Below are positions 13,244 to 64,000 of a stretch of DNA of 64,000 nucleotides, piece by piece. The stretch's first letter is position 1. Each line of letters opens with the position of its first letter. Source of the DNA: Lingula anatina (taxonomy: Eukaryota > Animalia > Brachiopoda); the NCBI GenBank assembly GCA_051362555.1, contig CM120644.1, positions 14,654,534-14,718,533 on the forward strand, in the 5' to 3' direction. The translations under genes were made by a program, and so were the position numbers. Below the pieces are notes generated by a model, which ran no database searches, was not told where the DNA came from, and saw only the letters and a list, made by a program, of their open reading frames with translations.

Positions 13244-13860
13244 ATTGATCAAGTGATATTTGGACACTTTTTCCTTGATTGAAGGTAAAAGTTGAAAATT
13301 TAAAGCCATGTTAATTTCGTTGAGATATGATTGTGGTAATTGATATCTAATTGCGGTGGTTAAGACACTAAGGGTTCCTGTAGTGGTTCCGCTTGTAAAA
13401 CCGTAAAGTTCGACATGTAACACATACATAAACCCAGCAATATAATCATTTGAAGGTGTGTTCGTCTACATTAATTCTAGTCACGGTAAGCGAATAAATG
13501 GATGTTTCCTCTCAATTTCATCTGTAATATCAAAGTATGATTATTTAATCAACAATGCAACATTAAGCTGAAGACCCAGTAATGGCCGTTATATACACTC
13601 TGCATTAAATCTATGTTATACACTCCTGCTACTATATCAGTACAACTGAATTCAGTCAGATAACGGCGATAAAATATGTCACCATGTCTGTATTGTCTGT
13701 ATTGTACATAGAGATAACCCAAAAATTGCTGATTAAGATGTACTTTGAAGTGTCCTTGAACACTGAACGTCTCGCCTGACCAGGTGTACATGTCAAGAGA
13801 GACAGCACATCTAATGGCGACTGGGGGCGTGTACCTGTCACAAAAAGAAATATAACTGGA

Positions 13861-14345
13861 GAAAGTACAGGTAAATCCCACTCCTAATATATCGTAATAC
13901 ATCATATTGGGAATATAATTCTGAAAATTGTGTGATAATGCACTGGGATGATGCTTGCTACAGTTTATGTCTCTGTAGGGCGGTAAAAATATAACACATT
14001 GTTACCGAGTTAGGATTGTATTATTCACTCTTCATCATACCTACCCGGTGATATTTCGGCTACATCATTTTTTTAGAATTTATTCCATTTTCGTTCTTCT
14101 TTTATGTAATAATTCACTGGATAACTACAATTATGTTTAATTACATATCTATTGTAATAGTTTCGTTTTCACTTCCGTCTTTCAAATCTTTTTATTATTA
14201 ATTATTTTGGTTTGTGTTCGTTCTTACTTTTCGTTTATATTACGGGACTTATCTTTAAAACATTAAGTTGGATGTCTTTCTTTGTTTATATTAAGGGAAT
14301 TTTCATTTAAACATTGTTGCATGTCTTTCTCTTCTTTATTTTCAG
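13861..14345 (+). promoter_or_regulatory. Candidate 5'-UTR intron of TRIM copy 1 (donor CAG|GTAAAT at 13870/13871; acceptor TTTTCAG at 14345)
   Basis: CAG|GTAA donor conserved in all six units (about 13870, 20622, 33673, 43913, 50220, 63550); polypyrimidine tract plus AG shortly before each TRIM ATG. Pairing of donor and acceptor is inferred. Confidence 0.4.
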
Positions 14346-14363
14346 ATATTGCCCTTAAGAGCC

Positions 14364-16262
14364 ATGTCTCTGTCCAAGATTTTAACGAAAGATTTCTTAA
14401 CGTGCAGCATATGCCATGAAAATTTCAAAGACCCTAAGGTCCTCAGCTGTGGGCATTCTTTTTGCTACCATTGCCTCCAAGACCATTTGGATAGAAACTT
14501 CCAAGGTCAGCCTCGCTTCACTTGTCCTATCTGCAGACGTCAGTGTGATCTCCCTAAAGACGGTGTAAGTGGTTTACAAACAAATCATCTTCTGGTGAGC
14601 ATATCACACACACAGGGTCAAGTAGAAGAAGCGAAAGCTGCCAAGAAATGCAGAATATGTCTCCTGAAAAATGACCGCAATCCACCAATGGCAACAAAAC
14701 GCTGTTTGGACTGTGAGGAAAGTATGTGTGGAGATTGTTCTACAGAACATTTACTTCATAAGTTCAGTCGTGACCACAAGCTGTTTCCTTTCGACCAGTT
14801 TGACAGCGACGAATACGTGACAGAGCTGCGTGCCCGGAAAAACGTCCTGTGTGACCACAACAACAAGGACCCCGTGGAAATCTTCTGCCCAGTATGTGAA
14901 AAGTTCGTCTGTGTCGGTTGTATGGTTTTAGAACACCAGGGTCATGATTGCCTTAGAATCAACACTGCTGCCAACAAACGCAAGGAGAAACTAGAACTCA
15001 GGGTGAAGCCCATCGAGAAGAAAAGTCTACGGTACGATCACTTTAAAACCGCTGCTGAAAAACAGAAATTATCAGTAGAAGAGGGAAGAAAAAAGGCAAA
15101 GAGTGAAGTAAACAGGCAGTTGGAGCAAGTTATTGAGATGGCCCGTGAACGTGCCAGTGAACTCCTTGAAGAAATAGATGCTGTGTCCAACGCCAAATTA
15201 GAAATTTTAAATTTTTTTATTGCAACTGCTACCGTCGACCAAAACCAACTGGACGACGTTGTAGACTTCTCGAGGAAACTCATTAACCATGGCAACGATA
15301 TAGATGTCCTCCAAATGGCCTCGGCCTGTGAGCAAAGCAGTGAGAGCGTCCAAACTTTCGAAATCCCGACCCTGCCCGCAGCCTTGACCCAGCTACAGCT
15401 AATCACCAAAGATATGGAGGAGTGCGTTACCAATATCAACAGTAGTCTTGGAAACGTAGTTCCAGCTGTGAGTGGAAGACTGGTGACATCATTCAAAGTA
15501 GAACTGAGCAAGTCTCCTGAGGAGTTGATCAGTCACGTGACCACTGATGTAAACGGTGATTACCTTTTTGGCATATTCTGTAATGAGGACAAGTCACGGA
15601 ATAGAATCCTCATCTACGATTCCAACCTTGTCCTTCAGAGCACAATTCCAAACCCAAGAGCAGCAGAAAAGTACGGTTTTGCTGGGATTGCCATTGATGA
15701 TGATGGCAACATTGTCACTAGATGTCAGGGATCAAATGAAATCATTGTTTACTCCAAGAAAGGAGACCACGTGAGAACATTCCACAGTGAGTCACCTCAT
15801 GCAGTTGCGGTCAACAGCAAGGGTCATTATGTAGTGGCAGGTCGCAGTACTCTGACTGTGCACCACAAGGATGGCGAGGTCCTGCAGACGACACCGGACC
15901 CAAAGAATAAATATATCAAACGCATCCACTGTAACGCCAATGATGACGTCATCGTCACAGGAGATGATCACATCCGTGTATACGATTCCACTCTCCGGCT
16001 TAAATACAGATATGGTACCAAGGGTGATGGAGACGGACAGGTGAACGGTCCGTGCGGCACATGCTGCTTGGATAATGGAGACATCATTCTAGCAGACCAC
16101 AAAAACCATCGTCTACACCTGGTGTCACAAGCTGGAAAATTCAACCGATTTCTTTTGACCAAAAGAAATGGACTTGTAAATCCGCAACATCTTGCAATAA
16201 CTTGTCTCGGACAACTTGTCGTAGGGGGAGAGAAAGGCGAGATTAAATTATTCGAATTATGA
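14364..16262 (+). CDS. TRIM-NHL E3 ubiquitin ligase-like protein, copy 1 (632 aa)
   Basis: C3HC4 RING (CSIC..CGH..CYHC..CPIC), B-box1 (CRIC..CLDC..C..C..H..H), B-box2 (CDH..CPVC..C..C..H..H), coiled coil, NHL repeats (GIAIDDDGNIV, PHAVAVNSKG, YGTKGDGDGQVNGPCG). ATG in gccATG context after a splice acceptor; no filamin domain seen. Confidence 0.95.
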   Translation: MSLSKILTKDFLTCSICHENFKDPKVLSCGHSFCYHCLQDHLDRNFQGQPRFTCPICRRQCDLPKDGVSGLQTNHLLVSISHTQGQVEEAKAAKKCRICLLKNDRNPPMATKRCLDCEESMCGDCSTEHLLHKFSRDHKLFPFDQFDSDEYVTELRARKNVLCDHNNKDPVEIFCPVCEKFVCVGCMVLEHQGHDCLRINTAANKRKEKLELRVKPIEKKSLRYDHFKTAAEKQKLSVEEGRKKAKSEVNRQLEQVIEMARERASELLEEIDAVSNAKLEILNFFIATATVDQNQLDDVVDFSRKLINHGNDIDVLQMASACEQSSESVQTFEIPTLPAALTQLQLITKDMEECVTNINSSLGNVVPAVSGRLVTSFKVELSKSPEELISHVTTDVNGDYLFGIFCNEDKSRNRILIYDSNLVLQSTIPNPRAAEKYGFAGIAIDDDGNIVTRCQGSNEIIVYSKKGDHVRTFHSESPHAVAVNSKGHYVVAGRSTLTVHHKDGEVLQTTPDPKNKYIKRIHCNANDDVIVTGDDHIRVYDSTLRLKYRYGTKGDGDGQVNGPCGTCCLDNGDIILADHKNHRLHLVSQAGKFNRFLLTKRNGLVNPQHLAITCLGQLVVGGEKGEIKLFEL

Positions 16263-16781
16263 GTGGCTGTTCAGCTTACAATGCCCCCCCCCCCCCGAAT
16301 ATGTGCTTGTTAATACAGACTTTTGTTAATATTTGATTACATATATGTAAAATATGTTCAGAGCACATATCAGTGAAGACAGAAAGTCGTATGTTTTGAA
16401 TTATACGTGTTATTTATTGGTAAAAAAAGTTATTTACTTTGGTAATTCGTTGTTTCACTAAACTGTCTGTAAATTGATTGGTTTTGCGTCGGCCATTCAC
16501 CCTTCCACCACGGTGCTCACGAAAATTTTGTAACCCTCACAATTAAGTCTCAGCCCTACTCTACTTGACGTCAGTAGTATTTTACTGCAATGTGTTTTTG
16601 TTTCTTATGTTTTTAAAGTGCCTGACCCCGGTCCGTGCGCTGCAGTCCAAATGCAGCGAGTGAAAAAAAAAACTTGAATTACATTTGCTACCTGCGGTGA
16701 TTTTAGATTCACAAGCCATTCTGTAGGGAAAACCAAGTACAGAAATTTTGACTTTATTTTTCCTTGTAACGGTGGCATACC

Positions 16782-17626: not shown

Positions 17627-17688
17627 GGCCTGATAGCTAAGTTGGTTAATAACATGAAATGTCCTGGGTTCAAGCTCCAGTCGGGCCA
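17627..17688 (+). pseudogene. Degenerate tRNA-Ile-like sequence, internally deleted
   Basis: GGCC.GATAGCTAAGTTGGTTA (A box) ... GGGTTCAAGC (B box) ... GGGCCA acceptor; anticodon arm partly deleted. Confidence 0.6.

Positions 17689-20819: not shown

Positions 20820-20872
<53 letters not shown>
20820..20872. repeat. poly(T) tract at a homologous position in each unit (also 50421-50459)
   Basis: T runs of variable length directly after the conserved upstream block. Confidence 0.9.
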
Positions 20873-20876
<4 letters not shown>

Positions 20877-21199: not shown

Positions 21200-23098
21200 A
21201 TGTCTATGTCCAAGATCCTAACGGAAGATTTCCTAACATGCAGCATATGTCATGAAAAGTTCAAAGATCCCAAGGTCCTCAGCTGTGCCCATACGTTTTG
21301 CCAGCATTGCCTCCAAGACCATCTGGGCAGAAAATTTCAAGGTCAGCCTCACTTCCCTTGTCCTATCTGTAGACGTCAGTGTGTCCTCCCTGGAGGCGGT
21401 TTAAGTGCTATACAAACAAATCATCTTCTGGTCAGCATATCACACACACATGGTCAAGTAGAACAAGCCAAGGCTGCCAAAAAATGCAAGATATGTTGCA
21501 TGAAAAATGTCTCCAATCCACCGACGGCAACAAAACGATGTTTGGACTGTGAGGAAAGCATGTGTGGAGATTGTTCTTCGGAACATATGCTTCATAACTT
21601 CAGTCGTGACCACAAGCTGTTTCCTGTCGACCAGTTTGACAGCGACGAATACGTGACAGAGCTGCGTGCCCGGCAAAACGTCCTGTGTGACCACAACAAC
21701 AAGGACCCCGTAGAAATCTTCTGCCCAGTGTGTAAAAAGTTCATCTGTGTCGGTTGTATGGTTTTAGAACACCAGGGTCATGATTGCCTTAGAATCAACA
21801 CTGCTGCCAACAAACGCAAGGAGAAACTAGAACTCAGGGTGAAGCCCATCGAGAAGAAAAGTCTACGGTACGATCACTTTAAAACCGCTGCTGAAAAACA
21901 GAAATTATCAGTAGAAGAGGGAAGAAAGAAGGCAAAGGGTCAAGTAAACAAGCAATTGGAGCAAGTTATTAAGATGGCCCGTCAACGTGCCAATGATCTC
22001 CTGGGAGAAATAGATGCCATGTCAAATGCCAAATTAGACATTTTAAATGGTTTAATTGCAACTGCTACCGCCGACGAAAAGCAGCTGATGGGTATTGTTG
22101 ACTTCTCGAGAAAACTCATTAACCATGGCAACGATATAGATGTCCTCCAAATGGCCTCCGCCTGTGAGGAAAGCAGTGAGAGCGTCCAGACTCTCGACAT
22201 CCCGACCCTGCCCGCAGCCATGACCCAGCTACAGCTGATCACCAAAGACGTGGAGGAGTGCGTTACCAGTATCAACAGTTGCCTTGGAAACGTGGTTCCC
22301 GCCGTGAGTGGAAGACTGGTGACATCATTCAAAGTAGAACTGGCCAAGTCTCCTGAAGAGGTGATCAGTCAAGTGACCACTGATAATAATGGTGACACCC
22401 TTTGTGGTATTTGGTGTATTGATGACAGGTCACGGAATAGAATCCACATCTACGATTCCAACGTTGTCCTTCAGGGCACAATTCCAAACCCCAGAGCAGC
22501 AGAAAAAGACGCCTTTGCTGGGATTGCCATTGATGATGACGCTAACATCGTCACTAGATGTCAGGTGTCAAAAGAAATCATCGTCTACTCCAAGAAAGGA
22601 GACCACGTGAGAACATTCCACAGTGAATCACCGGAAGCAGTAGCGGTCAACAGCAAGGGTCACTATATAGTGGCAGGTCGCAGTACTCTGACTCTGCACC
22701 ACAAGGAGGGCGAGGTCCTGCAGTCGACACCAGACCCAAAGAATAAACATTTGAAATACATCCACTGTAACGTCAATGATGACGTCATCATCAAAGGAGA
22801 TGACCACATCCGTGTATACGATTCCACTCTCCAGTTTAAATACAGATATGGTACCCAGGGTGATGGAGACGGACAGGTGAACGGTCCGTGCGGCACATGC
22901 TCCTTGGATAATGGAGACATCATTCTTGCAGACCTCTGGAATGATCGTCTACACCTGGTGTCACCAGATGGGAAATTCAAGCGATTTCTTTTAACCAAAG
23001 AAAATGGAATTGATAGGCCGAAAGATGTTGCAATAAATCATCTCGGACAACTGGTCGTTGGAGAACAGAGGGGGAAGATAAAATTCTTCGAGTTATGA
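21200..23098 (+). CDS. TRIM-NHL protein, copy 2 (632 aa)
   Basis: Intact paralog of copy 1 with the same domain order; gccATG at 21200. Confidence 0.95.
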   Translation: MSMSKILTEDFLTCSICHEKFKDPKVLSCAHTFCQHCLQDHLGRKFQGQPHFPCPICRRQCVLPGGGLSAIQTNHLLVSISHTHGQVEQAKAAKKCKICCMKNVSNPPTATKRCLDCEESMCGDCSSEHMLHNFSRDHKLFPVDQFDSDEYVTELRARQNVLCDHNNKDPVEIFCPVCKKFICVGCMVLEHQGHDCLRINTAANKRKEKLELRVKPIEKKSLRYDHFKTAAEKQKLSVEEGRKKAKGQVNKQLEQVIKMARQRANDLLGEIDAMSNAKLDILNGLIATATADEKQLMGIVDFSRKLINHGNDIDVLQMASACEESSESVQTLDIPTLPAAMTQLQLITKDVEECVTSINSCLGNVVPAVSGRLVTSFKVELAKSPEEVISQVTTDNNGDTLCGIWCIDDRSRNRIHIYDSNVVLQGTIPNPRAAEKDAFAGIAIDDDANIVTRCQVSKEIIVYSKKGDHVRTFHSESPEAVAVNSKGHYIVAGRSTLTLHHKEGEVLQSTPDPKNKHLKYIHCNVNDDVIIKGDDHIRVYDSTLQFKYRYGTQGDGDGQVNGPCGTCSLDNGDIILADLWNDRLHLVSPDGKFKRFLLTKENGIDRPKDVAINHLGQLVVGEQRGKIKFFEL

Positions 23099-23934: not shown

Positions 23935-25080
23935 TCAAGGTCCACTCAACTCTAGTTTGTGACTGCAGTTTTCAACTATCTGCTTTTCCAAATCATCCAA
24001 AACACTCCAAAATTTAAAGTCAGGTGCCGTGTGAATGGCCAACGGCATTGAGAGAAGACAAGAATCCTTCTTTAATTCTGGAGGTACTGTCAACCAAAAG
24101 TTTGGATTGTGGACAAGCTCAATTCCATATTCGTGCGCCAGTGTGGCTAGGTACACATCTTCAATGAAGAGATGTTTCCAAAACGAGGCTGAATGGAGGA
24201 CTCTGACGACTTCGAAAGAGGCTACTGTGGCAAACCCCGAAAGGAAAGCGGGATATTTACTTCCACTGTACTGCCTAAGTGACTGGTAATATTTTTGTGT
24301 TGGATTTCGAAAAGGAGAACTCCCTTTCGGGTACAAATAGCCTGTGAACAACGTTTTCATCTTGAAATGAAGACCCTTCAAGTATCGGATAATCTCGCGG
24401 TAATTTGCGATAACATCATGCCCGCACCTTAAGACAAATTTTGCACCTGCGCAGTAATCAATGGCCCATCGCATGGCCAGTAGTGACTTTAGAGTGAAAT
24501 TCTTGTAGGTGTCGTTAAATGTCATTTTGATGATATCTTTGTGTTCAGAGTTTTCTACTAATATCCCACGTTCTACGTCTGAATCATTTGTTTGGCCGAC
24601 GGCAAATACAGTCTTTATTTTCTCTCCAAGAACGTCTTTAACGCTCCCACACGTCTTTCGATACATGCCCCTGGTGATAAAATCACGAGGATCTGACATA
24701 ACTAACACTAGGAGGTACACGTCGTCTGTATCCCTGCATGGGCTGTTTATTATGTACCTGTATCTTTTAATGTGGTACCACAGGTCAGAATCATTTTTCT
24801 TTAGTTCACATACAATCTCTGGCACTATGCAATCCCCAAGACTAATCTGTTGAGTGTCCTCTTTAACTAATTCTCCTGCAGGCCTCCTGCTCAGATTTTC
24901 AGAAGGTTCCATCTGTCTGTTTCCACCTTCATCTTTGTTTTGGACGGAGGTATCGCCAGTCCTCGTGCAGTTCCAAAGAAAATATATGGCCAGAATATTG
25001 ATAACCACTAATAATAAGCAGATACCCGATCTGGTCTTCATTCCGATGTTTGTTTTGTCTTGCACAGCGCTAGAGAGCAT
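23935..25080 (-). CDS. GT31 family beta-1,3-galactosyltransferase-like protein (381 aa), the only intact copy; DxD motif altered
   Basis: Type II TM (ICLLLVVINILAIYFLW); GT31 motifs LLVLVMS..R..YRKTCG, EHKDII..FNDTYKNFTLKS..W..C..AKFVLRCGHDV, PFR..KYY, YPAFLSG, IEDVYL. Confidence 0.9.
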   Translation of the reverse strand: MLSSAVQDKTNIGMKTRSGICLLLVVINILAIYFLWNCTRTGDTSVQNKDEGGNRQMEPSENLSRRPAGELVKEDTQQISLGDCIVPEIVCELKKNDSDLWYHIKRYRYIINSPCRDTDDVYLLVLVMSDPRDFITRGMYRKTCGSVKDVLGEKIKTVFAVGQTNDSDVERGILVENSEHKDIIKMTFNDTYKNFTLKSLLAMRWAIDYCAGAKFVLRCGHDVIANYREIIRYLKGLHFKMKTLFTGYLYPKGSSPFRNPTQKYYQSLRQYSGSKYPAFLSGFATVASFEVVRVLHSASFWKHLFIEDVYLATLAHEYGIELVHNPNFWLTVPPELKKDSCLLSMPLAIHTAPDFKFWSVLDDLEKQIVENCSHKLELSGP

Positions 25081-27796: not shown

Positions 27797-30700
27797 TGTT
27801 TTGGGTTAGAAAGAACATAGAACTCCTTTTTGTACACGGTTGGCTTTATTTTCGGTTTATTCAAAATTGCTGATAAGCTGACAGTTGATAGCTGATAGCC
27901 GATAGCCGATAAACGGTCACTAAATTAAAAATAAAAATACAATATAATATATTCAAAGTATAATATAAAACAATGATTCTCATAAATTAAAACAAGTACA
28001 CTTACATAAATTGTGGAGTCTATATCTTATAAAGAGAGTCATGTCCTTCTGTCCTTCTCCAGTAAAGTCTGTGTATGTGTGTGTGTGATCTCAGTAGGTG
28101 TGGTCTTTTGTATTCATGCCTCACATGAGTGAGTGACCACATTTCACATTTGCTTGACTGAACAGTTTTTGTCAATATTTTGTGGATCCCAGAACATCGG
28201 GAGGTTCTCCTCGCAGAGATACGTTATATATTTTTATCTCTGCGACACTAATTATTAAACATAAAGTTCAAATAACACACAACTCTTTAACTAATGAAAT
28301 ATATTCATATACTGTAAAGAAATCATAATTATATAACATCATTTATGACTTGTGTACTAATATATATATAATGTTGCATTTAGTATTTAAGAGCAATTAC
28401 ATATCCTCAACAGGAATTAATAAACCCAATCTTCTCACAGATCTCTCTACCTCAATATTCTTAGCACCCTTGTACTCATGAACTTTTTCTCCCACTCTAT
28501 AATTTTTATAATACTTTTACCCTTCTTACTAGACCATCAGTGCCAGGGAAAACTTCAGTAACCTTTGCAAGACGATATTCTCCCTTGAGAACATTCCTAT
28601 CAGGTACTAAAACAACATCTCCCACTTTCAAGTCTCGATTCCCTTTAAACCATTTGGTTTGATGGACAAGAGTGTGTGCAAAGAGATTCTTCCATTGCTC
28701 TCAGAACTGTTTCACACAGCCTTCCACTAAAGTGAGACGAGATCTCAAGGAATGATTTGCATCATAACCTCCAGGATTTCTAGAAGTAGATCTACCAAGA
28801 AGTAGAGAATTGGGAGTAAGGATATTGAGAGTAGAATCAACACTGGGCATCAATCCTATTTGTATTTCATTAAGCAAATCTGCAACTTGTGTAAAGACTG
28901 AGAATTTCAGGCACAGATAACCTCTGATTTTTCACACTAAGGTCAATTGCTTTTTTTAGCAGACTTTACCAATGATTCTACAGCACCTTGATACCATGGA
29001 CTGTCAGCAGGCCCAAATTTCCAATTAAGACCCACATCTGAACCTTGTCTCAAAAGAACGTCTTTATCTTTATTGGCCTATGCTCGTGCTAATTCAAAGC
29101 TAGCACCTAGAAGTTGAGAACCAAGATCTAAATAGATAACAAACGGCCATCCTCGAATAGCTGCAAAACGAGACAATGCCAACAAAAATGACTGTGTATC
29201 ATATCAAAACACCACTTCAATGTGAACAGCCCTGCAACAAAGATCAGTAAAAATGACCCCCCATGCTTTACCAGTAGTGGGTTTTTGAACTTCCCCCTTT
29301 ACCTGGTAGGGTCCAAATAAATCCAACATCACAGTGGAAAATGGAGGAGAAGGCATGAGACGAGCAGGTGGCATAGGGCCCATTTTTTGATCAACGTATT
29401 TTGTTTTGAGAAGTTTGCACAATTGACAATTGTCACAAATACTTTTGCTTAATTTTGCAGCATGAGATGTCCAAAATCGTAACCTGAACTTTGCTGCTGT
29501 AACATCGCGACCTTTATGACCACAATTTAAATGTTAATCATTCATAAACAATTTGGTCAAAGGATGCTTTCTAGGCAGTAAAATCAATGGTTTGTTTTCA
29601 GGTGTCAGTGGATTTTGATGTGCAATGCGTGTCCCTACTACCCATAATCCATTTTGTTTAACGGGCATCAAAGTACGGAATTGTGCTTTCACTCCATCAT
29701 TATACCATGCAGAATTCTGAGCATCAGATATCAAAAGCATTTCAGCCTGTGTAAGTAATTCAGGTGTAACATTGGACTTATTTCCTCCTCGGAAAGAACC
29801 TGCTCTGAAAATTGCCAAGATCCTAGCATAAGCCCATTTTATAACTTTCAAAGATGAACACCTAGGATAAGATGTCTCTGCATGGAGTAATGTGCCAGTA
29901 TTCACTGTTTTCAAAGATGCTTGGATTTTCTTCTCACCTCGAAGAAATTCAGACACAGTAGGGTTAAATTTCACACTCCACTGATATCGTGGCTTGTAAA
30001 GAAACTCTGGTCCATTGAACCATTCTGAAACAGGACCTAAATCACTAGGAAACCTACCTCTTGTGACCCAATCAGCAATACTATGCTGTCCACTAATCCA
30101 ACCCCAGCAACCAACATCCCCTGTTGTTGCTGCCTGGAATTCTCCAATACGAACACCCTCATATACACGGAATCGAGTGCTCAGTTTGTTAATCATACAC
30201 AAAACGGTTGCTGAATCAACTAATTGCAATATTTCAGAAAATTGAAATCTGCATTCAGATTCAATTACTTTTTTGACATAACAGCACCATTTAATTCCAT
30301 TTGTGGAATTGAAATACGATTCAAAGGTGCAATTCGACATTTTGCCATTACTAACCTACACCAGAAAGTGCCATCTTTCAAAGTCCACCTAATGTAGGCT
30401 GCACATCCATATGCGTTTTCTGAACCATCAGACAAGATGATTAACATTGGATCACCAACAACATCATGCACTGGTTTCAATTCATCAATCTGAAACAATG
30501 AACAGAAAAATTTCCTCAATTTGACATTTAATACCTCTGGAATAGCTTCGTCCCAATGTAGACGCATGTTTCTCTCAAATACATCTTTGCAAGTAAGAGA
30601 AAAGGTACAAGGAAGCCAAATGGATCAAATATTCCCATCACTTGCTCCAAAACTATGCGTCTGGTCAGCACAGTAGCTATTTCACCTGGAACCTGAGATG

Positions 30701-46425: not shown

Positions 46426-46530
46426 GTGAATGTGCGACAACAATGGAGTCCAAATGTGTTTGTATACAGATAATTCTGTTAACATTTGATGAGATATAAC
46501 TATTTTCCCAACACCTTGTACATATATGTC

Positions 46531-48149: not shown

Positions 48150-48151
<2 letters not shown>
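46531..48151. mobile_element. 1.6-kb non-autonomous DNA transposon with ~130-bp TIRs, next to a (TA)n tract
   Basis: Left AAGGCCCAGACCAAATCTAGT...GGGCAAGTTAATTG matches the reverse complement of 48020-48150; absent from the 3' flanks of the other TRIM copies; no transposase ORF. Confidence 0.8.

Positions 48152-48236
<85 letters not shown>
48152..48236. repeat. (TA)n microsatellite
   Basis: Pure TA run. Confidence 0.95.
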
Positions 48237-50860: not shown

Positions 50861-52759
50861 ATGTCTCTGTCCAAGATCCTAACGGAAGATTTCCTAACAT
50901 GCAGCATATGCCATGAAAAGTTCAAAGACCCCAAGGTCCTCAGCTGTGCCCATACGTTTTGCCAGCATTGCCTCCAAGACCATTTGGACAGAAATTGTCA
51001 AGGCCAGTCTCGCTTCCCTTGTCCTCTCTGTGGACGTCAGTGTGTCCTCCCTGGAGGCGGTGTAAGTGCTTTACAGACAAATCATCTTCTGGTCAGTATA
51101 TCACAAACACATGGTCAAGTAGAACAAGTCAAGGCGGCCAAGAAATGCAAGATATGTTGCATGAAAAATGTCTCTAATCCACCAACGGCAACAAAACGAT
51201 GTTTGGACTGTGAGGAAAGTATGTGTGGAGATTGTTCTTCGGATCATATGCTTCATAAGTTCAGTCGTGACCACAAGCTGTTTCCTGTCGACCAGTTTGA
51301 CAGCGACGAATACGTGACAGAGCTGCGTGCCCGGCAAAAAGTCCTGTGTGACCACAACAACAAGGACCCAGTAGAAATATTCTGCCCTGTGTGTAAAAAG
51401 TTCATCTGTGTCGGTTGTATGGTTTTAGAACACCAGGGTCATGATTGCCTTAGAATCAACACTGCTGCCAACAAACGCAAGGAGAAACTAGAACTCAGGG
51501 TGAAGCCCATCGAGAAGAAAAGTCTACGGTACGATCACTTTAAAACCGCTGCTGAAGATCAGAAACTATCAGTAGAAGAGGGAAGAAAGAAGGCAAAGAG
51601 TCAAGTAAACAAGCAGTTGGAGCAAGTTATTAAGATAGCACGTCAACGTGCCAATGATCTTCTGGGAGAAATTGATGCCAAGTCAAATGCCAAATTAGAC
51701 ATTTTAAATGGTTTAATTGCAACTGCTAACGCCGAGCGAAACCAACTGGATGACGTTGTAGACTTCTCAAGGAAACTCATTAACCATGGCAACGATATAG
51801 ATGTCCTCCAAATGGCCTCGACCTGTGAGCAAAGCAGCGAGAGCGTTCAGACTCTCTACATCCCCACCCTGCCAGCAGTCATGACCCAACTACAGCTTCT
51901 CACCAACGACATGGAGGAGTGCATTACCGGAATTAACAGTTGCCTTGGAGACGTAGTTTCCGCAGCGAGTGGAAGACTGGTGACATCATTCAAAGTAGAA
52001 CTGGCCAAGTCTCCTGAAGAGATGATCAGTCACGTGACCACTGATACAAATGGTGATACCCTTATTGGTATATTTTGTAATGAGGACAAGTCACGGAATA
52101 GAATCCACATCTACGATTCAACCTTTGTCCTTCAGGGCACAATTCCAAACCCAAGAGCAGCAGAAAAAGACGCCTTTGCTGGGATTGCCATTGATGATGA
52201 CGGTAACGTCGTCACTAGATGCCAGATGTCAAATGAAGTCATTGTCTACTCCAAGACAGGAGACCGCATGAGAACTTTCCACAGTGAATCACCGGAAGCA
52301 GTAGCGGTAAACAGCAAGGGTCACTATGTAGTGGCAGGTCGCAGTACTCTAACTGTACACCACAAGGATGGCAAGGTCATGCAGACGACACCAGTCCCAG
52401 AGAGTAAATATTTCAAATACATCCACTGTAACGTCAGTGATGACGTCATCGTCAAAGGAGACAGTCACATCCGTGTATACGATTCCACTCTCCAGCTTAA
52501 ATACAGATATGGTACCCAGGGTGATGGAGACGGGCAGGTGAAAGGTCCGTGCGGTGCATGCTGCTTGGATAAAGGAGAAATCATTCTAACAGACCTCCAC
52601 AACTGTCGTCTACACTTCGTGTCACCAGATGGGAAATTCCGGCGATTTCTTTTAACCAAAGAAAATGGACTTGCTTTTCCGAAAGATGTTGCAATAAATC
52701 GTCTCGGACAACTGGTTGTTGGGGAGTATGGAGGCGAGATTAAATTCTTCGAATTATGA
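50861..52759 (+). CDS. TRIM-NHL protein, copy 5 (632 aa)
   Basis: Intact paralog; gccATG at 50861. Confidence 0.95.
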   Translation: MSLSKILTEDFLTCSICHEKFKDPKVLSCAHTFCQHCLQDHLDRNCQGQSRFPCPLCGRQCVLPGGGVSALQTNHLLVSISQTHGQVEQVKAAKKCKICCMKNVSNPPTATKRCLDCEESMCGDCSSDHMLHKFSRDHKLFPVDQFDSDEYVTELRARQKVLCDHNNKDPVEIFCPVCKKFICVGCMVLEHQGHDCLRINTAANKRKEKLELRVKPIEKKSLRYDHFKTAAEDQKLSVEEGRKKAKSQVNKQLEQVIKIARQRANDLLGEIDAKSNAKLDILNGLIATANAERNQLDDVVDFSRKLINHGNDIDVLQMASTCEQSSESVQTLYIPTLPAVMTQLQLLTNDMEECITGINSCLGDVVSAASGRLVTSFKVELAKSPEEMISHVTTDTNGDTLIGIFCNEDKSRNRIHIYDSTFVLQGTIPNPRAAEKDAFAGIAIDDDGNVVTRCQMSNEVIVYSKTGDRMRTFHSESPEAVAVNSKGHYVVAGRSTLTVHHKDGKVMQTTPVPESKYFKYIHCNVSDDVIVKGDSHIRVYDSTLQLKYRYGTQGDGDGQVKGPCGACCLDKGEIILTDLHNCRLHFVSPDGKFRRFLLTKENGLAFPKDVAINRLGQLVVGEYGGEIKFFEL

Positions 52760-54952: not shown

Positions 54953-54995
54953 ATATGACACCGTTTGTCACTATATCTCAGTAGCTATTCCGTTA

Positions 54996-57900
54996 TATAA
55001 CACGCAGGGGTTATATAGGTTAAATAAAAGTCAAAGAAAAGGCATGTGTTTTTCACTGGATCTTGGTTTATTCACATGGATTCACAAGACACGTAAAAAC
55101 TAAAAAAGAAGAAAAGAAAAAGAAAATTACAACAATGTACTTACTAACGGTTATTTACGTGTTCAAATTTACTTACTCAAAAATTTATACATTTCAATAA
55201 TCACCAATAATAAATAACTAATCATCAATAATCAATAATAATCAATAAACAGTATTAAACTCACCATTTCTGCCATTTCTTTACACTATAAATTTCAAGT
55301 AGAAATAACGGATTCAAAAGTAAGAGTACTATGTGTTCCTCCTACGGAGACACTGTGATGAATGAAACAAAGTGCAAAACTCATGGGGCACCACCCTGAA
55401 TGAAAAGTTGTCATTTATGCAAATGAGTGCATTAGATGAGCCGGACATCAGGCTCCTCAATCACAACAAAAGTAAACTAAACCTTACATACCGGCCACCG
55501 AAAGGCGATTTAATCAAGATTCAAAATAGCCTTTCTAATCAAATATAAACACTATTTAATTTACTCAAAAAATGTCTTATAAAGTCATTGTCACTTAAAT
55601 GCATTGCACATTAAACAAAATTTCCTTCCAATAAACACAATTTTCGCACATCACGGCGAAAGCGTCCCTTGGCTGTTTTAACAATCACCTGGCGCACATG
55701 TCCGTATTTATCAGGAAAAGTTTCCTCTATCAATCCTTTAGGCCAATGACCACGAAAGGCATTTTCATCAATAAGCAAAACAAAGTCACCTTTTTGAAAG
55801 TTTTTTGCTGGTCGGAGCCATTTCTGACGTTCTTGAAGCACAGGCAAGTATTCTTTAATCCATCGCTGCCAAAATTGGTCTGCAATTAACTGCGCGTGTT
55901 TCCACTGTTCATTATATTGATCACGTTCTGTGAAATTGTCAGCGGACAAACAGGGATTCGAAAGCAACAACAGTAGTTGGTTAGGTGACAAAGTTTGTAG
56001 GTCGTAGTAATGGTCTGCTTTGACTACTGGGAACTGCATTTCATCTTCGGCACACCATGCACTTGCGAATGACTTTTTTCACTGTTGACAATCCACGCGT
56101 TATCCAAAATTCTTGACGTATCACAGATAACACGTGATATGCTCCCACATGTCCTTCTTTAATGTGATAGTGTCGCACAATGATTTCAGTGACGTGATGA
56201 TCGTGTGGAAGAATTTTCGGGTGTTTCCGTGAAGTAGATATCGCTGCATTCTGGAGACGTCCTCCTACACACAGAATCCCATCAATTTTGATCGGAGATA
56301 GCTTGCGCAATGGGCTCACGTATCCCTTGGAATCGGGTTTTTTGGTCATTGCAGATGATACAACGTTGCACTCTTTGGGAAATGATTTTGCTTGTACATA
56401 CATCACAATGGCATCAGTAGCAAGCGCGATTTCCTGTATGGTCCATTGTTTCTATCTACTGTCAACTGTCTCACGCGGGACAGTAAGTAGCGTTTGAAAC
56501 GCAAAATCCAGGCAACTGATTTCTGTAAAGTATACCACGATGATAAATGATGCAACAATCGCTCTACACCGTCCAATACTTCCGACGACGTAGTGACATG
56601 TACATGAGCTGATTTACATTTCACTTCTCTGTCATTTTCTGGAATTTCATGTAGATTATCTGGTTGTTTCGGCCAATGTATCTCGGGCTGATACAAGAAA
56701 GCTGGGCCATGTAACCAAAGCTGTATGTCATCACCGTAATCACTTCTGAGCTGTATTCCTCTCGAAGCGTAATCTGCCGGGTTCTGATCTGAATCAACAT
56801 GATACCACTGCGATGGGAATGAAACATCATGTATCATTTGTAAACGATTGGCAACAAAAACGTGGAATCTGGTCGCGGAATTCCGAATGTACTGGAGCAC
56901 AATCGTAGAATCTGTCCAGAAAACAACACGATGAATGGGCAGTTGTAGCTCCTCCATCATTTGTTTGTGAACTTTCGCAGACAATGTAGCAGCTGTCAGC
57001 TCCATTCGTGGAACAGTCACTGTTTTCAGAGGCGCTACACGTGATTTCCCCATGACAATGTTGCAATATACCTGCTGATTAATATCAACAAACCGCAAGT
57101 AGGAAACAATGCCGTAGCCGGATAACGAGGCATCTGAAAAATGGTGAAGTTCAATGGACTGAATATCTGCTAATTGAGCTGATTTGTAGCATCTTGGGAC
57201 TTCAATTGTTTGTAAATTGTCCAATCCTTCTCTCCACTGTGTCCATGCATTAAGATGCTCTGCAGGTAAGTCACTGTCCCACGCAATGCCTTCCCGACAC
57301 AATTCTTGGAGTATCTGTTTAGGTTTGAGAATAAGTGGCGCTGCAAAACCCAGTGGATCATATATTGATGCAATAAATGACTTAATACCTCTGCGGGTAT
57401 TCTTTACATCCCTTTCACGGACGCAGTATCCAAATGTATCCTTTTCTATTTTCCACTGTACGCCTAACGCATGTTCTATCGGCTGTTTGTCAAAGTTTAC
57501 ATTTCTGACCGACGGTGCTTGCTCTGCAGTGGGCACACTGGATAGAACTTCCTCCTGGTTCGATATCCACTTGGTCAGATGAAATCCACCTTTCTGCAGT
57601 AGCGAGGTGAGTTGAGTAATCACCATCTTAGCTTCATCAACGGTCTCTACAGACTTTAAGCAATCGTCAACATAGAAGTTTCTGTAGACAGTTTCAACGG
57701 TCTGGAAATCAAAGTCCTTTCCATGATCTTCTGCATTTTTGAGGAGAGCGTAGACTGTACAACTTGCAGAGGAAGTAGCACCAAACACGTGGACTAACAT
57801 TTGGTATTCTTCTGGTTGTTTGCTGAGATCTCCTGCCGGCCACCATAGGAATCGTAAGGCGTCACGATCATCAGGGTACACTCTCACTTGATGATACATT

Positions 57901-60900
57901 TGCTCAATATCAGCAACAATGGCTATCTTCTCCTGGCGGAATCTAAGGAGAACTCCAATGAGTGAATTGGTTAAATCCGGACCCTGTAACAAGGAATCAT
58001 TCAGCGAAACGCCTGCATATTTCGCTGCACAATCGAAGACAACTCTAATTTTGGACTTCTTTGAATTGATCACAGGGTGATGAGGTAAGTACCAAACAGA
58101 ATTGCTGTTATTATGCAGATTTCTGTGGTCAATCTTCTGAGCGTGTCCTTTATCAATATACTCCTGAAGAGCTTGAGTATACTTCTCTCGTAGTTTTTCG
58201 TCACGCTGTAAACGTCTTTTGAGCAAATTCAAGCGCTTTTCAGCTGCTGGCTTGTTATTGGGTAAGAGCTCGTCTGACTTCCAAGGAAGTGAAACTTGGT
58301 AATGTCCGTCAACAAATACCACGGACTCATCCATGATTCTCTTCGCTTTCCTATCTTCTAATGACATGCACTGGTTGCTGCTGACTGAAGACTCACTGAA
58401 TTCACTGTTGTAAATCTTGCTTAGTTGGGTAGAAATAGAATCGCAGCCTCTCAGAGAATTGTCACATCCGAGTACCTGGTCTGCGTGAATGAAATTAACC
58501 GTGACGTCACCATCATTTGGTCTTTTCATGGGACCTAATATAGTCCATCCTAAAATCGTTCGGATCGCGTACGGTTGTTTCTTATCGCCTCGTCTCTCTT
58601 CTATGCGCCAGTGAGCTTCAGGGTGATCATTACCGATGAGAATGGTAACTGTTTTGTCATCTAGCTCTGGCAGTTGCACATCTTTCAAATGGCTCCACTC
58701 TAAAATGTCCTCATTGTTTGGAATGTTCTTTTCACAGATGGGTAGTCTGTCGGTCGTCCAAACTTGATCTAGAATCAATCCTTGCTGGCTATTGATAGCT
58801 TTCACTTCTAGCTGTACTTCTTGTCCTTGGTTTACGCAACTTTCATCGTTAACTGTACTGACACTGTACTGGATAGGTTTCCCTCTGGCACCTAACTTTT
58901 CAGCTAAACTGTGTAAACATAAACTGTGATCAGATCCATTGTCTAGAAATGCATAAGTTTCAATAATCGGTCCACCATTGCCGCCGCTCACGGTCACTGG
59001 GATAATCTGTAGACTGATTCTTCTTCCTGTCGCTACCGCAGCACTCTGGACTGCAACTACGGGGTCAGTAACAACAGACGTAGCGTTGGCACCAGGCTCA
59101 CGTTGCAGTGCGGAGCTGTTGGCAGGTACACAGGGTGGGTGTAGTAACGCGTGATGTCGCTTGCCACATCCAGGGACTTGACACAATTGTTTCCATTGAC
59201 ACGTTCTCGCCGTGTGTGGAGGGTTGGACTGAAGACAATTGAAACACAGTTTGTTTTCCGACACAAAATTTCTCCTATCACTGTAATTCATTCTAGCAAA
59301 TTTGAAACATTGCTTGATAGTATGATTTCCAGAACAAAACACACACGGGTCTCTCTGGACTGACGATGGCTGGGACTTGTTGGAGTTACTGTTGCTTTTC
59401 TCGGCAGGGTGAACGTTAGTGGCTAGGGTAGTGGTCTTATAGGACGGGTTGTGACAACTGCCCTTTGACTTAGGTTTCACATCCGGCTTGGATCCTACCA
59501 ATTGTCCGAACCTTGTGTTGGCAATCTGTACCATTTCCTCCAGGTAATCTGCGAGATCCTTGAACTTGACCTCAATCCACTGATTCAACAATTTTCCGGA
59601 ACGTTTGGCCCATCCAGCTTGGAGATATTGCGGTAATCGCCGGATCACTTTTTCCAGAGTATCCATAGAATTCAAATCTTCATAGTATCCCATCTTGGAT
59701 GCTGTCATTTGGCACGTAGTCATGTCTCTTGAGAGCTTGGAGAGTCGTGTAACGTCTGACGCTTTAATGGGAGGACCTGTTACTATTTTCTCCAACATAG
59801 CTTTGATGATGATGTGTTTTTGTCCGAAATGAGTCTGTAATATGTTTCTAGCCTGGAAATAACCTTCCTCTGGTTCAAGTATGACACAGCTTTTTATGGC
59901 TTCTTTGGCTTCACCTGTGCAGTACTGTATGAGGTATGACAGTTTACTTCTAAAGTCTGGTACTCTTTGTTCAATATTAGTCTCAAAGTTTCTTATGAAA
60001 GTCGGGTATGATACCGGATCACCATTGAAATACAAGTACTCACGTTTGGGCATTTCTTGGTTCAGCGTGATTTCTTGTAAAGCTCGTTGTTGTTGTTGAA
60101 GTAAGTGTGCTACTTGGTCATTCATGGTAAGCTGACGTTGTTGCTCTATGGTAGACGTACCTATTGACTGCGCCGTCATAGGTGTATATTCCGTTGCATG
60201 TGGGTTTAACGTCATCGTTGGATCTGTATAGGATGGCACAATGTACGGTTGCTGTAGCTGTGACGGTTGTGACGACTGTGCTGCAGTAGGGAACTCCTGT
60301 GGTTGATTTGTCCTTGACATAGGTTTCGGTTGAGTGGGCTCCGTCTCATATGACACTCCTAATTGCTGAAGCTGTTGCGTGGAATGCGGGTGATGTGCAT
60401 TCATGCGTGACCGCTGTTGCTCACTCTGCTGTTGCTGTTGTGCACTGATATGTTGATGAGAAACATGATCGGAATTTGTCAGATTATGTGCATCAATAGT
60501 ATCAACGTTACCTTCTTCCATGGAATTAAAGTAGCGATCAATCGTGAAGTTGTGTTCCGATAAAGATGCGTCTTCCTGAATTTCAGCCTCAATTTCCCGC
60601 CGTCTCACCTGGGCTCGTAGGGAAAGCATTCTCATTTCGTCTTTTAGCTCTTGCTCGCGATACCGACGCCTTAGTGCGGTTTCCGCTTCTTCGAATTCCA
60701 GCTGAGCATTAGCAATAGCAAGCGCTGCTTTCGTCCTTTGGGATTCCGATGCCGAACGCAAACTGTTGGTTCTGAATCGTCTATGGGATAGTCCGAAATC
60801 TTGTAAGCTGCCGTGGTACGCCATGATGGAAATTTCAGTGGGATGATTGAAAAATGTTTTTACTTTATATAACACGCAGGGGTTATATAGGTTAAATAAA

Positions 60901-61360
60901 AGTCAAAGAAAAGGCATGTGTTTTTCACTGGATCTTGGTTTATTCACATGGATTCACAAGACACGTAAAAACTAAAAAAGAAGAAAAGAAAAAGAAAATT
61001 ACAACAATGTACTTACTAACGGTTATTTACGTGTTCAAATTTACTTACTCAAAAATTTATACATTTCAATAATCACCAATAATAAATAACTAATCATCAA
61101 TAATCAATAATAATCAATAAACAGTATTAAACTCACCATTTCTGCCATTTCTTTACACTATAAATTTCAAGTAGAAATAACGGATTCAAAAGTAAGAGTA
61201 CTATGTGTTCCTCCTACGGAGACACTGTGATGAATGAAACAAAGTGCAAAACTCATGGGGCACCACCCTGAATGAAAAGTTGTCATTTATGCAAATGAGT
61301 GCATTAGATGAGCCGGACATCAGGCTCCTCAATCACAACAAAAGTAAACTAAACCTTACA
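54996..61360 (-). mobile_element. Recent BEL/Pao LTR retrotransposon, 493-bp LTRs (54996-55488, 60868-61360), 5-bp TSD CGTTA
   Basis: LTRs look identical by eye; TSD at 54991-54995 and 61361-61365; PPT-like GGTGGCCGGTA before the 3' LTR; gag-pol internal region. Confidence 0.95.
55611..60824 (-). pseudogene. BEL/Pao gag-pol polyprotein, open through RNase H, then frameshifted with the integrase core deleted
   Basis: Three Gag Cys/His knuckles (CVFC..H..C, CFNC..H..C, CQVPGC..HH..H), protease FLDNGS, RT ADIEQMY/YVDD, RNase H FSDAS/PRMEL/WTDS/NPADYASRG. Frameshift near 56440. Integrase HHCC (HIKEGH..CMVC) is followed directly by SRPL and the C-terminal domain. Confidence 0.9.
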
Positions 61361-61915: not shown

Positions 61916-61989
61916 AGCCTGATAGCTCAGTTGGTTAGAGCGTCTTGCTTATAACGCGAATGTCCTGTATTTAAGCCAGAGTTGGGCTG
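61916..61989 (+). pseudogene. tRNA-Ile-like pseudogene (anticodon reads TAT), best-preserved copy
   Basis: TAGCTCAGTTGGTTAGAGCG D-arm, CT-TAT-AA loop, AGCCTGA/TTGGGCT acceptor stem; T-loop/B box mutated (GTATTTAAGCC). Confidence 0.65.
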
Positions 61990-62899
61990 TGCCCCTTTTA
62001 CTGTTATTTGTTGTCTGATTTTCATTTTAAACAACTGTTCCATTCTCATTGATCACGACCTGTGTAACAAGTGCTCAACACAGAGCGTAAATACGGTTAC
62101 TAGGACGAAACATTGCAACACTGCCATTCCGATAGCTGATGAGCCGAAAATGTGGCTAATTTTTTAAAATGAAGGATAGAAGGATAACCGTAAACACAAA
62201 TTTAGGACTAGCTGAGTAAAACTAAAGGCAGGCCTACTTTTCCGAAAAGGCAATTTGTAGACTCGCTGCTTTAGATGAGGCAAACACTCACGATGGTGGT
62301 GTTTGTAACTGCTAAAACAATCACACACATTAAAGTTGCCCAATGAATGTGTGTCTTGATTGTGTTTTGTTGAAAAAAAACATTACTTCCATATGCATTT
62401 TACTCAGTAATCTGTCTGATAATTCAAACGACAATTGGTACCAATAAAACTTTGTGCAAACTGCTCATTCTTGAGCAACTGGGCATCAGGCACTCACCAA
62501 CCTGCACTGAACCAGTGTGGTGAGTTACAGGTCAACACCACTTTGACATCACGCCAAGCATGGAAAAGTGTGTGGTGGGGCGACTTAACGAAAAAACCTT
62601 GTCACTTGATAAAATTACCATATTTGGCATGTGTTTCCCTTTTGAAATTCTAAATCAAATAAGAGCCACACCCATCTGGAAAAATTTACTGTTTAGTCAA
62701 AAATTGCCCCCCCCCCCCCCCAACCCCCAAGTTGACACAATGAGAAATTAAATATTTGTCAAATTCAAACCAAATTCCCATTTACAGCGGGGTTTTTCCC
62801 ACAGAGAAAGAGCGGTCCTCTCGATCTGCCCACAGCATTCGCCTACGTGTATGTACATGTATATGTGATAGGCAAGATTGAAATCAAGGCAGATTTTTA

Positions 62900-64000
62900 A
62901 TTCGTGTAGACCACGATCACCTGTAGACTTAGATATAATGCGGTAGAGGAGATACTGCACGAGTTGTGGAAAATATTGCTGTTGTTGAGATGTGATTGTG
63001 GTAGTTGATACCTAATTGCGGTTGTTGAGACAACAAGGGTTCCTGTACTGGTTCTGACTGTACACTAGAAAGTTCAATACGTAACACATACATAAACCCT
63101 GCAATATACTCATTTGAAGGTTTGTTCCTCTACATTAATACTAGCCAAGTTAGGCGAATTTATGGATGTTACCTCTCAAATTCATCTTTAATATCAAAGT
63201 ATGATTACGTAGTCGACAATATAACATTAAACTGAAGACCCAGTACTGTATTTAATATACACGCTGCGTTAAATCTGTGTTATACACCCCTGCTACTAGG
63301 TCAGTTGTATCAGTGTCACAACTGAATTCAGTCAGATAACAGCTATGAAATAATGTGTCACCATGTCTGTATTGTCTGTATTGTACATAGAGATAACCCA
63401 AAAAATAGCTGATTAAGATGTACTTTCAGGTCCCCTTGAACACTGAACACCTCACCTGACCAGGTGTACATGTCAAGAGAGACAGCACATCTAATGGCGA
63501 CTGGGGGCGTGTACCTGCCACCAAGAGAAATATAACTGGAGGAAGTACAGGTAAAGCCCATTCCTAATATATTGTAATACATTACATTAGGAATATAATT
63601 CCGATAATTGTATGATAATGTATAGGGGAATGGTGCTTGCTGCAGTTTGTGTCTCTGTAGGTTGGTATAAAAATAAGGCGTCGTTACCGAGTCCGGAGTG
63701 TAGTATTTACTCATCATAATACCTACCCTGTAATATTTTGGGTACCTACATTTTTTTTTAAATAATTTTTTTCATTTTCAGTTTTCATTCATTTCATAAT
63801 TCAATTGATAGATTATAATAATTCTAATTCTATATCTATTAGTTAAGTTTCATTTGTACTTCCGCCTTTCTTTTTTCTTTCTACTTTTTTTTTCCTTTGT
63901 ATATTTTTTCCTATAGTAACTTTTGTTACACAAGCATAATAAAGAGGCTGATTTGGTTCTCTATAAAAATTGAAGACGTTGCATGACTTTTCTTTCATGT
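62900..64000 (+). other. Upstream block of a sixth TRIM unit (CDS predicted to start about 155 bp beyond the window)
   Basis: Close colinear match to 49580-50705; position 64000 corresponds to 50705, and the copy-5 ATG is at 50861. Confidence 0.8.

What the first reader, a model, noticed from the sequence alone, without database searches (positions are those of the whole stretch)
13318..64000. Amplified TRIM-NHL + GT31 two-gene cassette beside GT15 genes: candidate invertebrate immune/recognition locus
Seen: a convergent pair (single-coding-exon RING-BB-CC-NHL gene and a GT31 gene) is repeated at least 5 times, with a 6th unit starting, directly next to two GT15 genes. Established: tandemly expanded TRIM genes with variable C-terminal domains are typical of antiviral/innate immune clusters (TRIM5 and fish finTRIMs, which use B30.2), whereas TRIM-NHL proteins (Brat, LIN-41) are normally low-copy RNA regulators. 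Inference: this is a birth-and-death sensor-E3 family that uses the NHL propeller as its variable recognition module, possibly linked to glycan remodelling. I know of no described TRIM-NHL/GT31 cassette, but could not search.
Basis: partly seen in the sequence, partly recalled or inferred. Interest (0 to 1): 0.8.

Follow-up and report, generated by a model that had tools for sequence, protein, structure and literature searches.

The report
Brachiopod TRIM array with fast-evolving propeller
In a genome that is likely a lamp shell's (Lingula), a ubiquitin-ligase gene was copied head-to-tail five times together with a neighbouring sugar-transferase gene: all five ligase genes are intact and one face of their predicted propeller-shaped binding domain changes unusually fast, as would suit a likely family of immune sensors, whereas the sugar gene is broken or missing in four of the five copies and is likely a passenger.

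Summary
The array is real, but the 'two-gene cassette' is only partly so. Five intact 632-aa RING-B-box-B-box-coiled-coil-NHL genes and the start of a sixth unit are present. GT31 is intact in 1 of 5 units: internally deleted, intact, broken, absent, broken. Closest relatives are Lingula anatina proteins. The reference assembly has the same locus, so this is no artefact, and 21 further paralogs lie on 11 other scaffolds with no close GT31 found. The real signal is in the propeller. Codon models show positive selection there (omega about 6 at 6% of sites, p=3e-6; p=8e-4 allowing multi-base changes) and none in the RBCC part. The same sites are hypervariable in 20 other paralogs and crowd the top, ligand-binding face (13 of 75 top-loop against 0 of 55 bottom-loop positions). 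It works like TRIM5/finTRIM clusters but with NHL instead of B30.2. An immune role is inferred, not shown; RNA reads were near zero. GT31 is likely a passenger, though its copies were constrained for part of their history.

The parts
2133..3311 (-). GT15 gene a (flanking, outside the repeat)
   Evidence: ORF 392 aa, PF01793 E 9e-40; 95% to L. anatina XP_013386701
5233..6378 (-). GT15 gene b (flanking, outside the repeat), 47% to a
   Evidence: ORF 381 aa, PF01793; 97% to XP_013382411 and XP_013386709
13319..14363 (+). Unit 1 upstream block: predicted non-coding exon ending at 13870 (CAG|GTAA) and intron
   Evidence: Block conserved in all six units; splice not confirmed by reads
14364..16262 (+). 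TRIM-NHL copy 1, intact, 632 aa
16797..17135 (-). GT31 copy 1, internal deletion of codons 80-348 and a 5-base loss near the start
21200..23098 (+). TRIM-NHL copy 2, intact, 632 aa; residues 366-632 modelled as a six-bladed propeller
23935..25080 (-). GT31 copy 2, the only intact one, 381 aa, N-terminal hydrophobic anchor, GHD in place of the DxD motif
28047..33214 (-). Decayed Pao/BEL-type LTR retrotransposon between units 2 and 3
   Evidence: Terminal direct repeats 28047-28196 and 33074-33214; PF05380
34308..36206 (+). TRIM-NHL copy 3, intact, 632 aa
37246..38268 (-). GT31 copy 3, broken (5' end disrupted, indels, frameshifts, stop)
38756..40016 (+). Non-LTR retrotransposon fragment (reverse transcriptase) upstream of GT31 copy 3
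   Evidence: PF00078; 97% to the tail of RefSeq model XP_013382403
44527..46425 (+). TRIM-NHL copy 4, intact, 632 aa; its unit has no GT31
46519..48162 (.). Insertion with 92-nt terminal inverted repeats 3' of TRIM copy 4
50861..52759 (+). TRIM-NHL copy 5, intact, 632 aa
53812..54952 (-). GT31 copy 5, broken (two stops, one frameshift)
54993..61360 (-). Young Pao/BEL-type LTR retrotransposon, two identical 496-bp terminal repeats, inserted 41 bp upstream of GT31 copy 5
62858..64000 (+). Start of unit 6 (upstream block, predicted non-coding exon and intron); coding exon lies beyond the window

Best explanation
This is a tandem array of a 7-8 kb segment in which five intact TRIM-NHL ubiquitin-ligase genes show positive selection on one face of a predicted six-bladed propeller, so they likely act as a diversifying set of intracellular sensors that would bind changing foreign targets and tag them with ubiquitin, while the GT31 gene inside the segment is likely a passenger that decays after copying. 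Shown: the repeats, intact TRIMs, broken GT31s, selection limited to the propeller, different TRIM copies at the same locus in another assembly. Predicted: the propeller fold and the top-face position of the variable sites. Inferred: amplification by unequal crossing-over; coiled-coil dimers that carry two propellers; target binding that clusters the RINGs and triggers ubiquitination (TRIM5/TRIM21 model, recalled); a pathogen as the driver; a protein rather than an RNA as the usual ligand.
For: 5 of 5 TRIM ORFs intact against 1 of 5 GT31. M1a vs M2a on residues 369-632: 2dlnL 25.6, p=3e-6, omega 6.3 at 5.6% of sites; residues 1-368: 2dlnL 0. Holds on 15 of 15 topologies (24.5-30.9), with multi-base changes (14.3, p=8e-4), and 0 of 25 neutral simulations reached 25.6. 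The 11 sites with posterior above 0.5 average 2.27 bits in 20 other paralogs against 0.67 for random propeller sites and 0.87 for other variable sites (0 of 100,000 draws each). Model pLDDT 95.6, 24 strands, TM 0.82 to TRIM2 NHL. Over 2 bits: 13 of 75 top-loop, 0 of 55 bottom-loop positions, Fisher p=6e-4; 7 of the 11 sites are in top loops. At the same locus in the reference assembly the GT15 proteins are 95-97% identical to the window's but 4 of 4 TRIM models are at most 89% identical to any window copy. 21 paralogs on 11 other scaffolds form a separate branch (SH-aLRT 100, quick tree); the GT31 search found no relative on scaffolds of those lengths.
Against: Expression is not shown: at 95% likeness four RNA runs gave depth at most 1.1 on copy 1, at most 0.24 on copy 2 and 0 on the bins inside the intact GT31. 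No ligand, no immune induction data. Codon tests use five sequences, my own implementation and empirical Bayes site calls (only 4 sites above 0.95); one neutral simulation reached 19.6; whole-domain omega is 0.56, below 1. Against a pure passenger: broken GT31 copies show past purifying selection (branch omega 0.42 for copy 3, p=0.002 against 1; 0.56 for copy 5, p=0.13), and the reference 55-kb scaffold has two GT31 models beside two TRIM models. Absence of GT31 at other loci rests on annotated proteins of 209-667 aa and on scaffold lengths, not on DNA.
Confidence: 0.55

Rival explanations
1. The propeller diversifies against an internal or non-immune target: transposon products or RNAs, germline or gamete conflict, or sub-functionalisation of RNA-binding specificity as between Brat and LIN-41. 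GT31 is still a passenger.
For: NHL top faces change specificity quickly in evolution (PMC5908797, passages); selection alone does not name the driver; the array is dense in young retroelements; hardly any reads in four RNA runs of unknown tissue.
Against: Top loops are net neutral to acidic (-15 to +2 in 25 proteins, crude residue count), unlike the basic RNA-binding faces of Brat and LIN-41; recurrent change at the same sites across 25 paralogs and turnover between assemblies resemble finTRIM (PMC2657112, passages).
Confidence: 0.2
2. A selected two-gene defence module: TRIM sensors plus a GT31 that alters surface glycans, with gain and loss of GT31 activity itself under selection.
For: Linkage is present in a second assembly; GT31 copies diverged to a similar depth as the TRIMs (dS 0.17-0.28 against 0.16-0.26) with omega 0.3-0.4; copy 3 was constrained before it broke; two GT15 genes flank the locus.
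Against: 4 of 5 GT31 copies are broken or gone by unrelated lesions; 21 of 25 reference TRIM paralogs lie on scaffolds where no close GT31 was found, and none was found on the 596-kb scaffold of this same locus; the genes are convergent, so share no promoter; a cytosolic ligase and a predicted Golgi-lumen enzyme are in different compartments (inference).
Confidence: 0.1
3. Neutral copy-number drift: the array grows by recombination in a transposon-rich region and surface loops vary only because they are unconstrained.
Against: Site models reject omega at most 1, also with multi-base changes; bottom loops are as conserved as strands (0.5 bits) while top loops are not; all five ORFs keep exactly 632 codons while the neighbouring gene decays.
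Confidence: 0.13
4. Assembly artefact.
For: No long reads were laid on the window.
Against: Copies differ by 10-14% in DNA and carry different insertions; TRIM and GT31 models alternate in accession order on a reference scaffold that also holds both GT15 orthologs.
Confidence: 0.02

Closest known systems
Lingula anatina 'TRIM2/3/56/71-like' RefSeq proteins (e.g. XP_013382406, XP_013386703)
   Same: Same family and, for four models, the same locus: 73-89% identity, same architecture.
   Different: Automatically named only; no window copy has a match above 89%; no description of the family was found in the genome paper's main text or supplement (term searches).
TRIM-NHL proteins, class C-VII / subfamily C (TRIM2, TRIM3, TRIM32, TRIM71/LIN-41, Brat, Mei-P26)
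   Same: RING, two B-boxes, coiled coil, six-bladed NHL propeller; best structural match TRIM2 NHL, TM 0.82, 20% identity.
   Different: No filamin domain; single coding exon; 25 or more paralogs instead of 3-5; top face hypervariable and not basic by residue count.
Fish finTRIMs and mammalian TRIM5/TRIM22 clusters
   Same: Tandem lineage-specific clusters, conserved RBCC, positive selection on loops of the C-terminal binding domain (PMC2657112, passages).
   Different: Binding domain is an NHL propeller, not B30.2; virus induction and restriction are untested here.
TRIM56
   Same: TRIM with an NHL-like C-terminus that serves in antiviral defence by binding viral RNA and proteins (PMC11768893, passages).
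   Different: One gene with a long disordered linker, not a diversifying array; orthology was not tested.
GT31 beta-1,3-galactosyl/GlcNAc transferases (B3GALT5, B3GNT2)
   Same: PF01762; aligned over residues 97-361, EDV motif and C-terminal His kept.
   Different: DxD motif reads GHD in 4 of 5 Lingula proteins and RHD in the fifth; most copies in the array are broken.

Membership tests
TRIM (RBCC) | N-terminal C3HC4 RING | tested here: met
   PF00097 above cut-off in 5 of 5 copies
TRIM (RBCC) | B-box after the RING | tested here: met
   PF00643 above cut-off in 5 of 5; a first B-box (PF22586) below cut-off in 4 of 5
TRIM (RBCC) | Coiled coil after the B-boxes | tested here: inconclusive
   PF25600 E 1e-4, below cut-off, in 1 of 5; continuous match to TRIM28 RBCC over residues 13-311; not folded
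TRIM (RBCC) | E3 ligase activity | not testable with these tools
   Zinc ligands are invariant in the five copies
TRIM-NHL (class C-VII) | C-terminal six-bladed NHL propeller | tested here: met
   Model pLDDT 95.6, six four-stranded blades; top Foldseek hits are TRIM2, Thin, TRIM3, TRIM71 NHL domains
TRIM2/3 or TRIM71/LIN-41 subfamily | Filamin domain before the NHL domain (recalled for TRIM2/3; for LIN-41) | tested here: not met
   No filamin hit in 5 of 5; only about 20 residues lie between coiled coil and propeller
TRIM71/LIN-41 and Brat (RNA-binding NHL) | Basic top face with conserved RNA-contacting residues | tested here: not met
   Top-loop net charge -15 to +2 in 25 proteins, top loops hypervariable; crude count, no electrostatic map and no LIN-41 control
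finTRIM / TRIM5 cluster | B30.2 (PRY-SPRY) domain | tested here: not met
   No such Pfam hit; C-terminus is a propeller
finTRIM / TRIM5 cluster | Tandem lineage-specific expansion | tested here: met
finTRIM / TRIM5 cluster | Positive selection on loops of the binding domain | tested here: met
finTRIM / TRIM5 cluster | Induction by virus or dsRNA; restriction activity | not testable with these tools
   RNA runs of unknown tissue and treatment gave near-zero depth
GT31 | Galactosyl_T domain with type II anchor | tested here: met
   PF01762 E 9e-33; hydrophobic stretch at residues 20-37 of copy 2 (seen)
GT31 | DxD metal-binding motif | tested here: not met
   GHD aligned to DSD of B3GALT5 and DDD of B3GNT2; shared by distant Lingula paralogs, so a GT31-fold variant of unknown activity
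GT15 | Glyco_transf_15 domain | tested here: met
   PF01793 E 9e-40 and 1e-43

The most novel reading that the evidence does not exclude
A polymorphic defence haplotype in a brachiopod: NHL-propeller TRIMs serve as the invertebrate counterpart of TRIM5-type restriction factors, each haplotype carrying its own sensor set, and the linked GT31 with its unusual GHD motif is a surface-glycan switch whose copies are gained and lost under the same pathogen pressure.
Probability: 0.08. Interest if true: 0.85.

Novelty: new variant of a known kind. Interest (0 to 1): 0.5.

Why it matters
Invertebrates lack the B30.2-type TRIM restriction clusters of vertebrates (subfamily G is vertebrate in PMC3503706, table passage). 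A TRIM family whose NHL propeller carries the same evolutionary signature would be a convergent solution and gives a short list of residues (388, 410, 437-438, 456, 494-495, 518, 562, 580, 605-608, 623-626) to test for ligand specificity. Unchecked notes of this scan report the same pattern in sea urchin, scallop, clam and mussel, so the Lingula case adds a phylum rather than a new principle. The TRIM-GT31 pairing matters little if GT31 is a passenger.

Tried and rejected
No whole genome is held for the window, so the array could not be extended and synteny rests on protein accessions and scaffold lengths. Sequencing-run search: 10 of 20 rows hold part of 21000-25400, none half of its words; no RNA holder listed; unlaid shares are not used as evidence. 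RNA lay at 95% on 12500-27500: the only deep signal is a small inverted-repeat element at about 13030-13245; the stretch held no control gene and other haplotypes may be too divergent to map, so silence is not concluded; expression at lower likeness and the state of the GT31 lesions in other animals remain open. Interferon-type elements: one strict ISRE-like match in the intron of copy 1 only, loose matches in T-rich intron sequence, no shuffle control; rejected as evidence. Gene conversion: tracts found only in the RBCC part (copy 1/2, aa 202-242, p=0.0008 uncorrected, 10 pairs), so it does not explain the propeller signal. The 50%-cluster search was swamped by long NHL-repeat proteins; 2 unnamed single-domain TRIM-NHL relatives stood out (P0171, 40% identical; P0224). 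The careful tree did not finish; the quick tree is used, and rooting on P0031 is unreliable. Literature: ten searches listed no paper on an expanded or positively selected TRIM-NHL family in brachiopods or other marine invertebrates; none of them contained a GT31 term, so 'cassette not in print' is untested beyond the scan's own notes (none). Term searches in the mussel and lancelet pangenome papers found nothing on TRIMs. The 2018 paper on the Lingula immune system (recalled) is not held and may describe this family. No complex was predicted: no binding between TRIM and GT31 is claimed.
Full report
What is there. The window holds five TRIM open reading frames of exactly 632 codons on the + strand, 80-83% identical to copy 1 in protein, with no gaps among them. 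Each has RING and B-box matches above Pfam cut-offs. Self-comparison shows a repeated segment of roughly 7-8 kb, lengthened in different units by different insertions, and the upstream block of a sixth unit at the window's end. A conserved CAG|GTAA site about 500-650 bases before each start suggests one non-coding exon (predicted, not seen in reads). Two GT15 genes lie outside the repeat.

The GT31 partner. Only unit 2 has an intact GT31. Unit 1 has lost codons 80-348, unit 3 has indels, frameshifts and a stop, unit 4 has lost the whole gene, and unit 5 has two stops and a frameshift, with a young LTR element (496-bp repeats, 0 mismatches) 41 bases upstream of its start. The lesions are unrelated to each other. 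The intact copy aligns to B3GALT5 and B3GNT2 but has GHD where they have DxD; distant Lingula paralogs share this, so it is a family trait, not decay.

Organism and locus. The best 24 of 38 TRIM hits are Lingula anatina proteins at 73-89% identity on 13 scaffold lengths; the GT15 genes are 95-97% identical to L. anatina proteins. I infer Lingula, L. anatina or very close. Two reference scaffolds carry this locus. On the 55,470-bp one the accessions run GT15 (XP_013386701), TRIM (703), GT31 (704), TRIM (706), GT31 (707), GT15 (709); on the 596,021-bp one lie two TRIM models and a GT15 ortholog, and no GT31 was found. Accession order is only a proxy for gene order. The linkage is thus real in another assembly. 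None of the four reference TRIM models exceeds 89% identity to a window copy, and one ends in retroelement sequence: the TRIM content turns over faster than the flanking genes. The other 21 paralogs form a separate branch (SH-aLRT 100, quick tree) and sit on 11 scaffolds, several with 2-5 copies; the GT31 search gave 5 hits, none on scaffolds of those lengths (annotated proteins of 209-667 aa only). The family therefore appears to expand without GT31 elsewhere.

Selection. Pooled dN/dS is 0.30-0.36 in RING, B-boxes and coiled coil and 0.56 in the propeller. Site models of my own implementation on the five coding sequences give, for the propeller, M1a vs M2a 2dlnL 25.6 (p=3e-6), omega 6.3 at 5.6% of sites, and M8a vs M8 25.6; for residues 1-368 no signal. 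The result holds on all 15 trees, falls to 14.3 (p=8e-4) when double and triple changes are allowed, and 0 of 25 neutral simulations reached the observed value, the largest being 19.6. Conversion tracts lie in the RBCC part only. As a second line, the 11 sites with posterior above 0.5 are far more variable than other propeller sites in 20 reference paralogs from other scaffolds (P0001, P0002, P0021, P0022, P0044 and the outgroup left out): 2.27 bits against 0.67, or 0.87 for sites that also vary in the window.

Where the sites lie. The C-terminal 267 residues fold with pLDDT 95.6 into six four-stranded blades, closest to TRIM2, Thin, TRIM3 and TRIM71 NHL domains. By the published definition, the b-c and d-a loops form the top, ligand-binding face (PMC4015489, passages). 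Assigned by strand order, 13 of 75 top-loop and 0 of 55 bottom-loop positions exceed 2 bits (p=6e-4); 7 of the 11 selected sites are in top loops, 1 in a bottom loop, 2 in strands, 1 before the propeller. Top loops are net neutral to acidic in these proteins, unlike the basic RNA-binding faces of Brat and LIN-41 (PMC4015489, PMC5908797, passages); the count is crude.

How it most likely works. Conserved RBCC plus a binding face under diversifying selection plus copy turnover is the pattern of finTRIMs and TRIM5 (PMC2657112, passages). I infer dimeric ligases whose propellers bind shifting foreign targets and whose RINGs then ubiquitinate them (mechanism recalled from TRIM5/TRIM21). TRIM56 shows that an NHL-like domain can serve antiviral defence (PMC11768893, passages), and ten TRIM-annotated genes were among 121 candidates for herpesvirus resistance in oyster larvae (PMC9437489, passage; domain type not given). 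Nothing here shows the ligand or induction. Four RNA runs laid at 95% gave almost no reads on copies 1 and 2 and none inside the intact GT31; this neither shows nor excludes expression.

Passenger or partner. GT31 lies inside the copied segment, convergent with the TRIM, and its copies diverged to a similar depth. Loss in 4 of 5 units beside 5 of 5 intact TRIMs points to a passenger. Against a plain reading, the broken copies were constrained for part of their history (branch omega 0.28, 0.42, 0.56 for copies 2, 3, 5; copy 3 below 1 at p=0.002, copy 5 not significant), and the reference scaffold has two GT31 models, both lacking the N-terminal anchor as annotated and one with an altered C-terminus. 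A dosage benefit for a while, or descent from functional copies by recombination, would explain this; a co-selected module is not excluded.

Comparison and novelty. The proteins are TRIM-NHL by architecture but not TRIM2/3 or LIN-41 subfamily members (no filamin), and they work like finTRIMs without being members (no B30.2). Similar clusters of 50-115 members occur in molluscs and echinoderms, and unchecked notes of this scan describe diversifying propeller arrays in urchin, scallop, clam and mussel, one with a decaying passenger enzyme and one without adaptive signal; these are leads, not support. Ten paper searches listed no description of such a family in brachiopods; the Lingula genome paper and its supplement have no hit for tripartite, NHL or B-box in the terms searched; Aplysia has 22 TRIMs (PMC9334734, passage). 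A 2018 Lingula immunity paper could not be read. Verdict: new variant of a known kind, interest 0.5.

Noticed in passing
window:23935-25080: Lingula GT31 subfamily replaces the DxD motif by GHD (4 of 5 proteins; RHD in one) while keeping EDV and the C-terminal His; activity unknown.
   Followed up: partly
window:2133-6378: Two single-exon GT15 (KRE2/MNT1-type, best known from fungi, recalled) genes; relatives also named from annelids Capitella, Dimorphilus and Owenia.
   Followed up: partly
window:54993-61360: Very young Pao/BEL-type LTR retrotransposon with identical 496-bp terminal repeats and a 1473-aa ORF.
   Followed up: partly
window:38756-40016: Non-LTR retroelement fragment; a 97% identical copy interrupts a TRIM model (XP_013382403) at this locus in the reference assembly.
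   Followed up: partly
window:13030-13245: Small inverted-repeat element that draws hundreds of RNA reads with loose ends in 4 of 4 runs, i.e. a high-copy element inside many transcripts.
   Followed up: no
window:14159-14176: Strict ISRE-like and overlapping Ets-IRF-like match in the intron of TRIM copy 1 only; degenerate in the other copies (motif definitions recalled).
   Followed up: partly
window:20116-20602: The predicted non-coding exon block is duplicated in tandem (243 bp, 88%) in unit 2.
   Followed up: no
window:31874-32278: 81-bp tandem repeat inside the decayed LTR element.
   Followed up: no
P0171, P0224 (unnamed proteins): Two TRIM-NHL proteins of the same length and architecture, P0171 40% identical, sharing the divergent first blade; possible older branches of the family.
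   Followed up: partly
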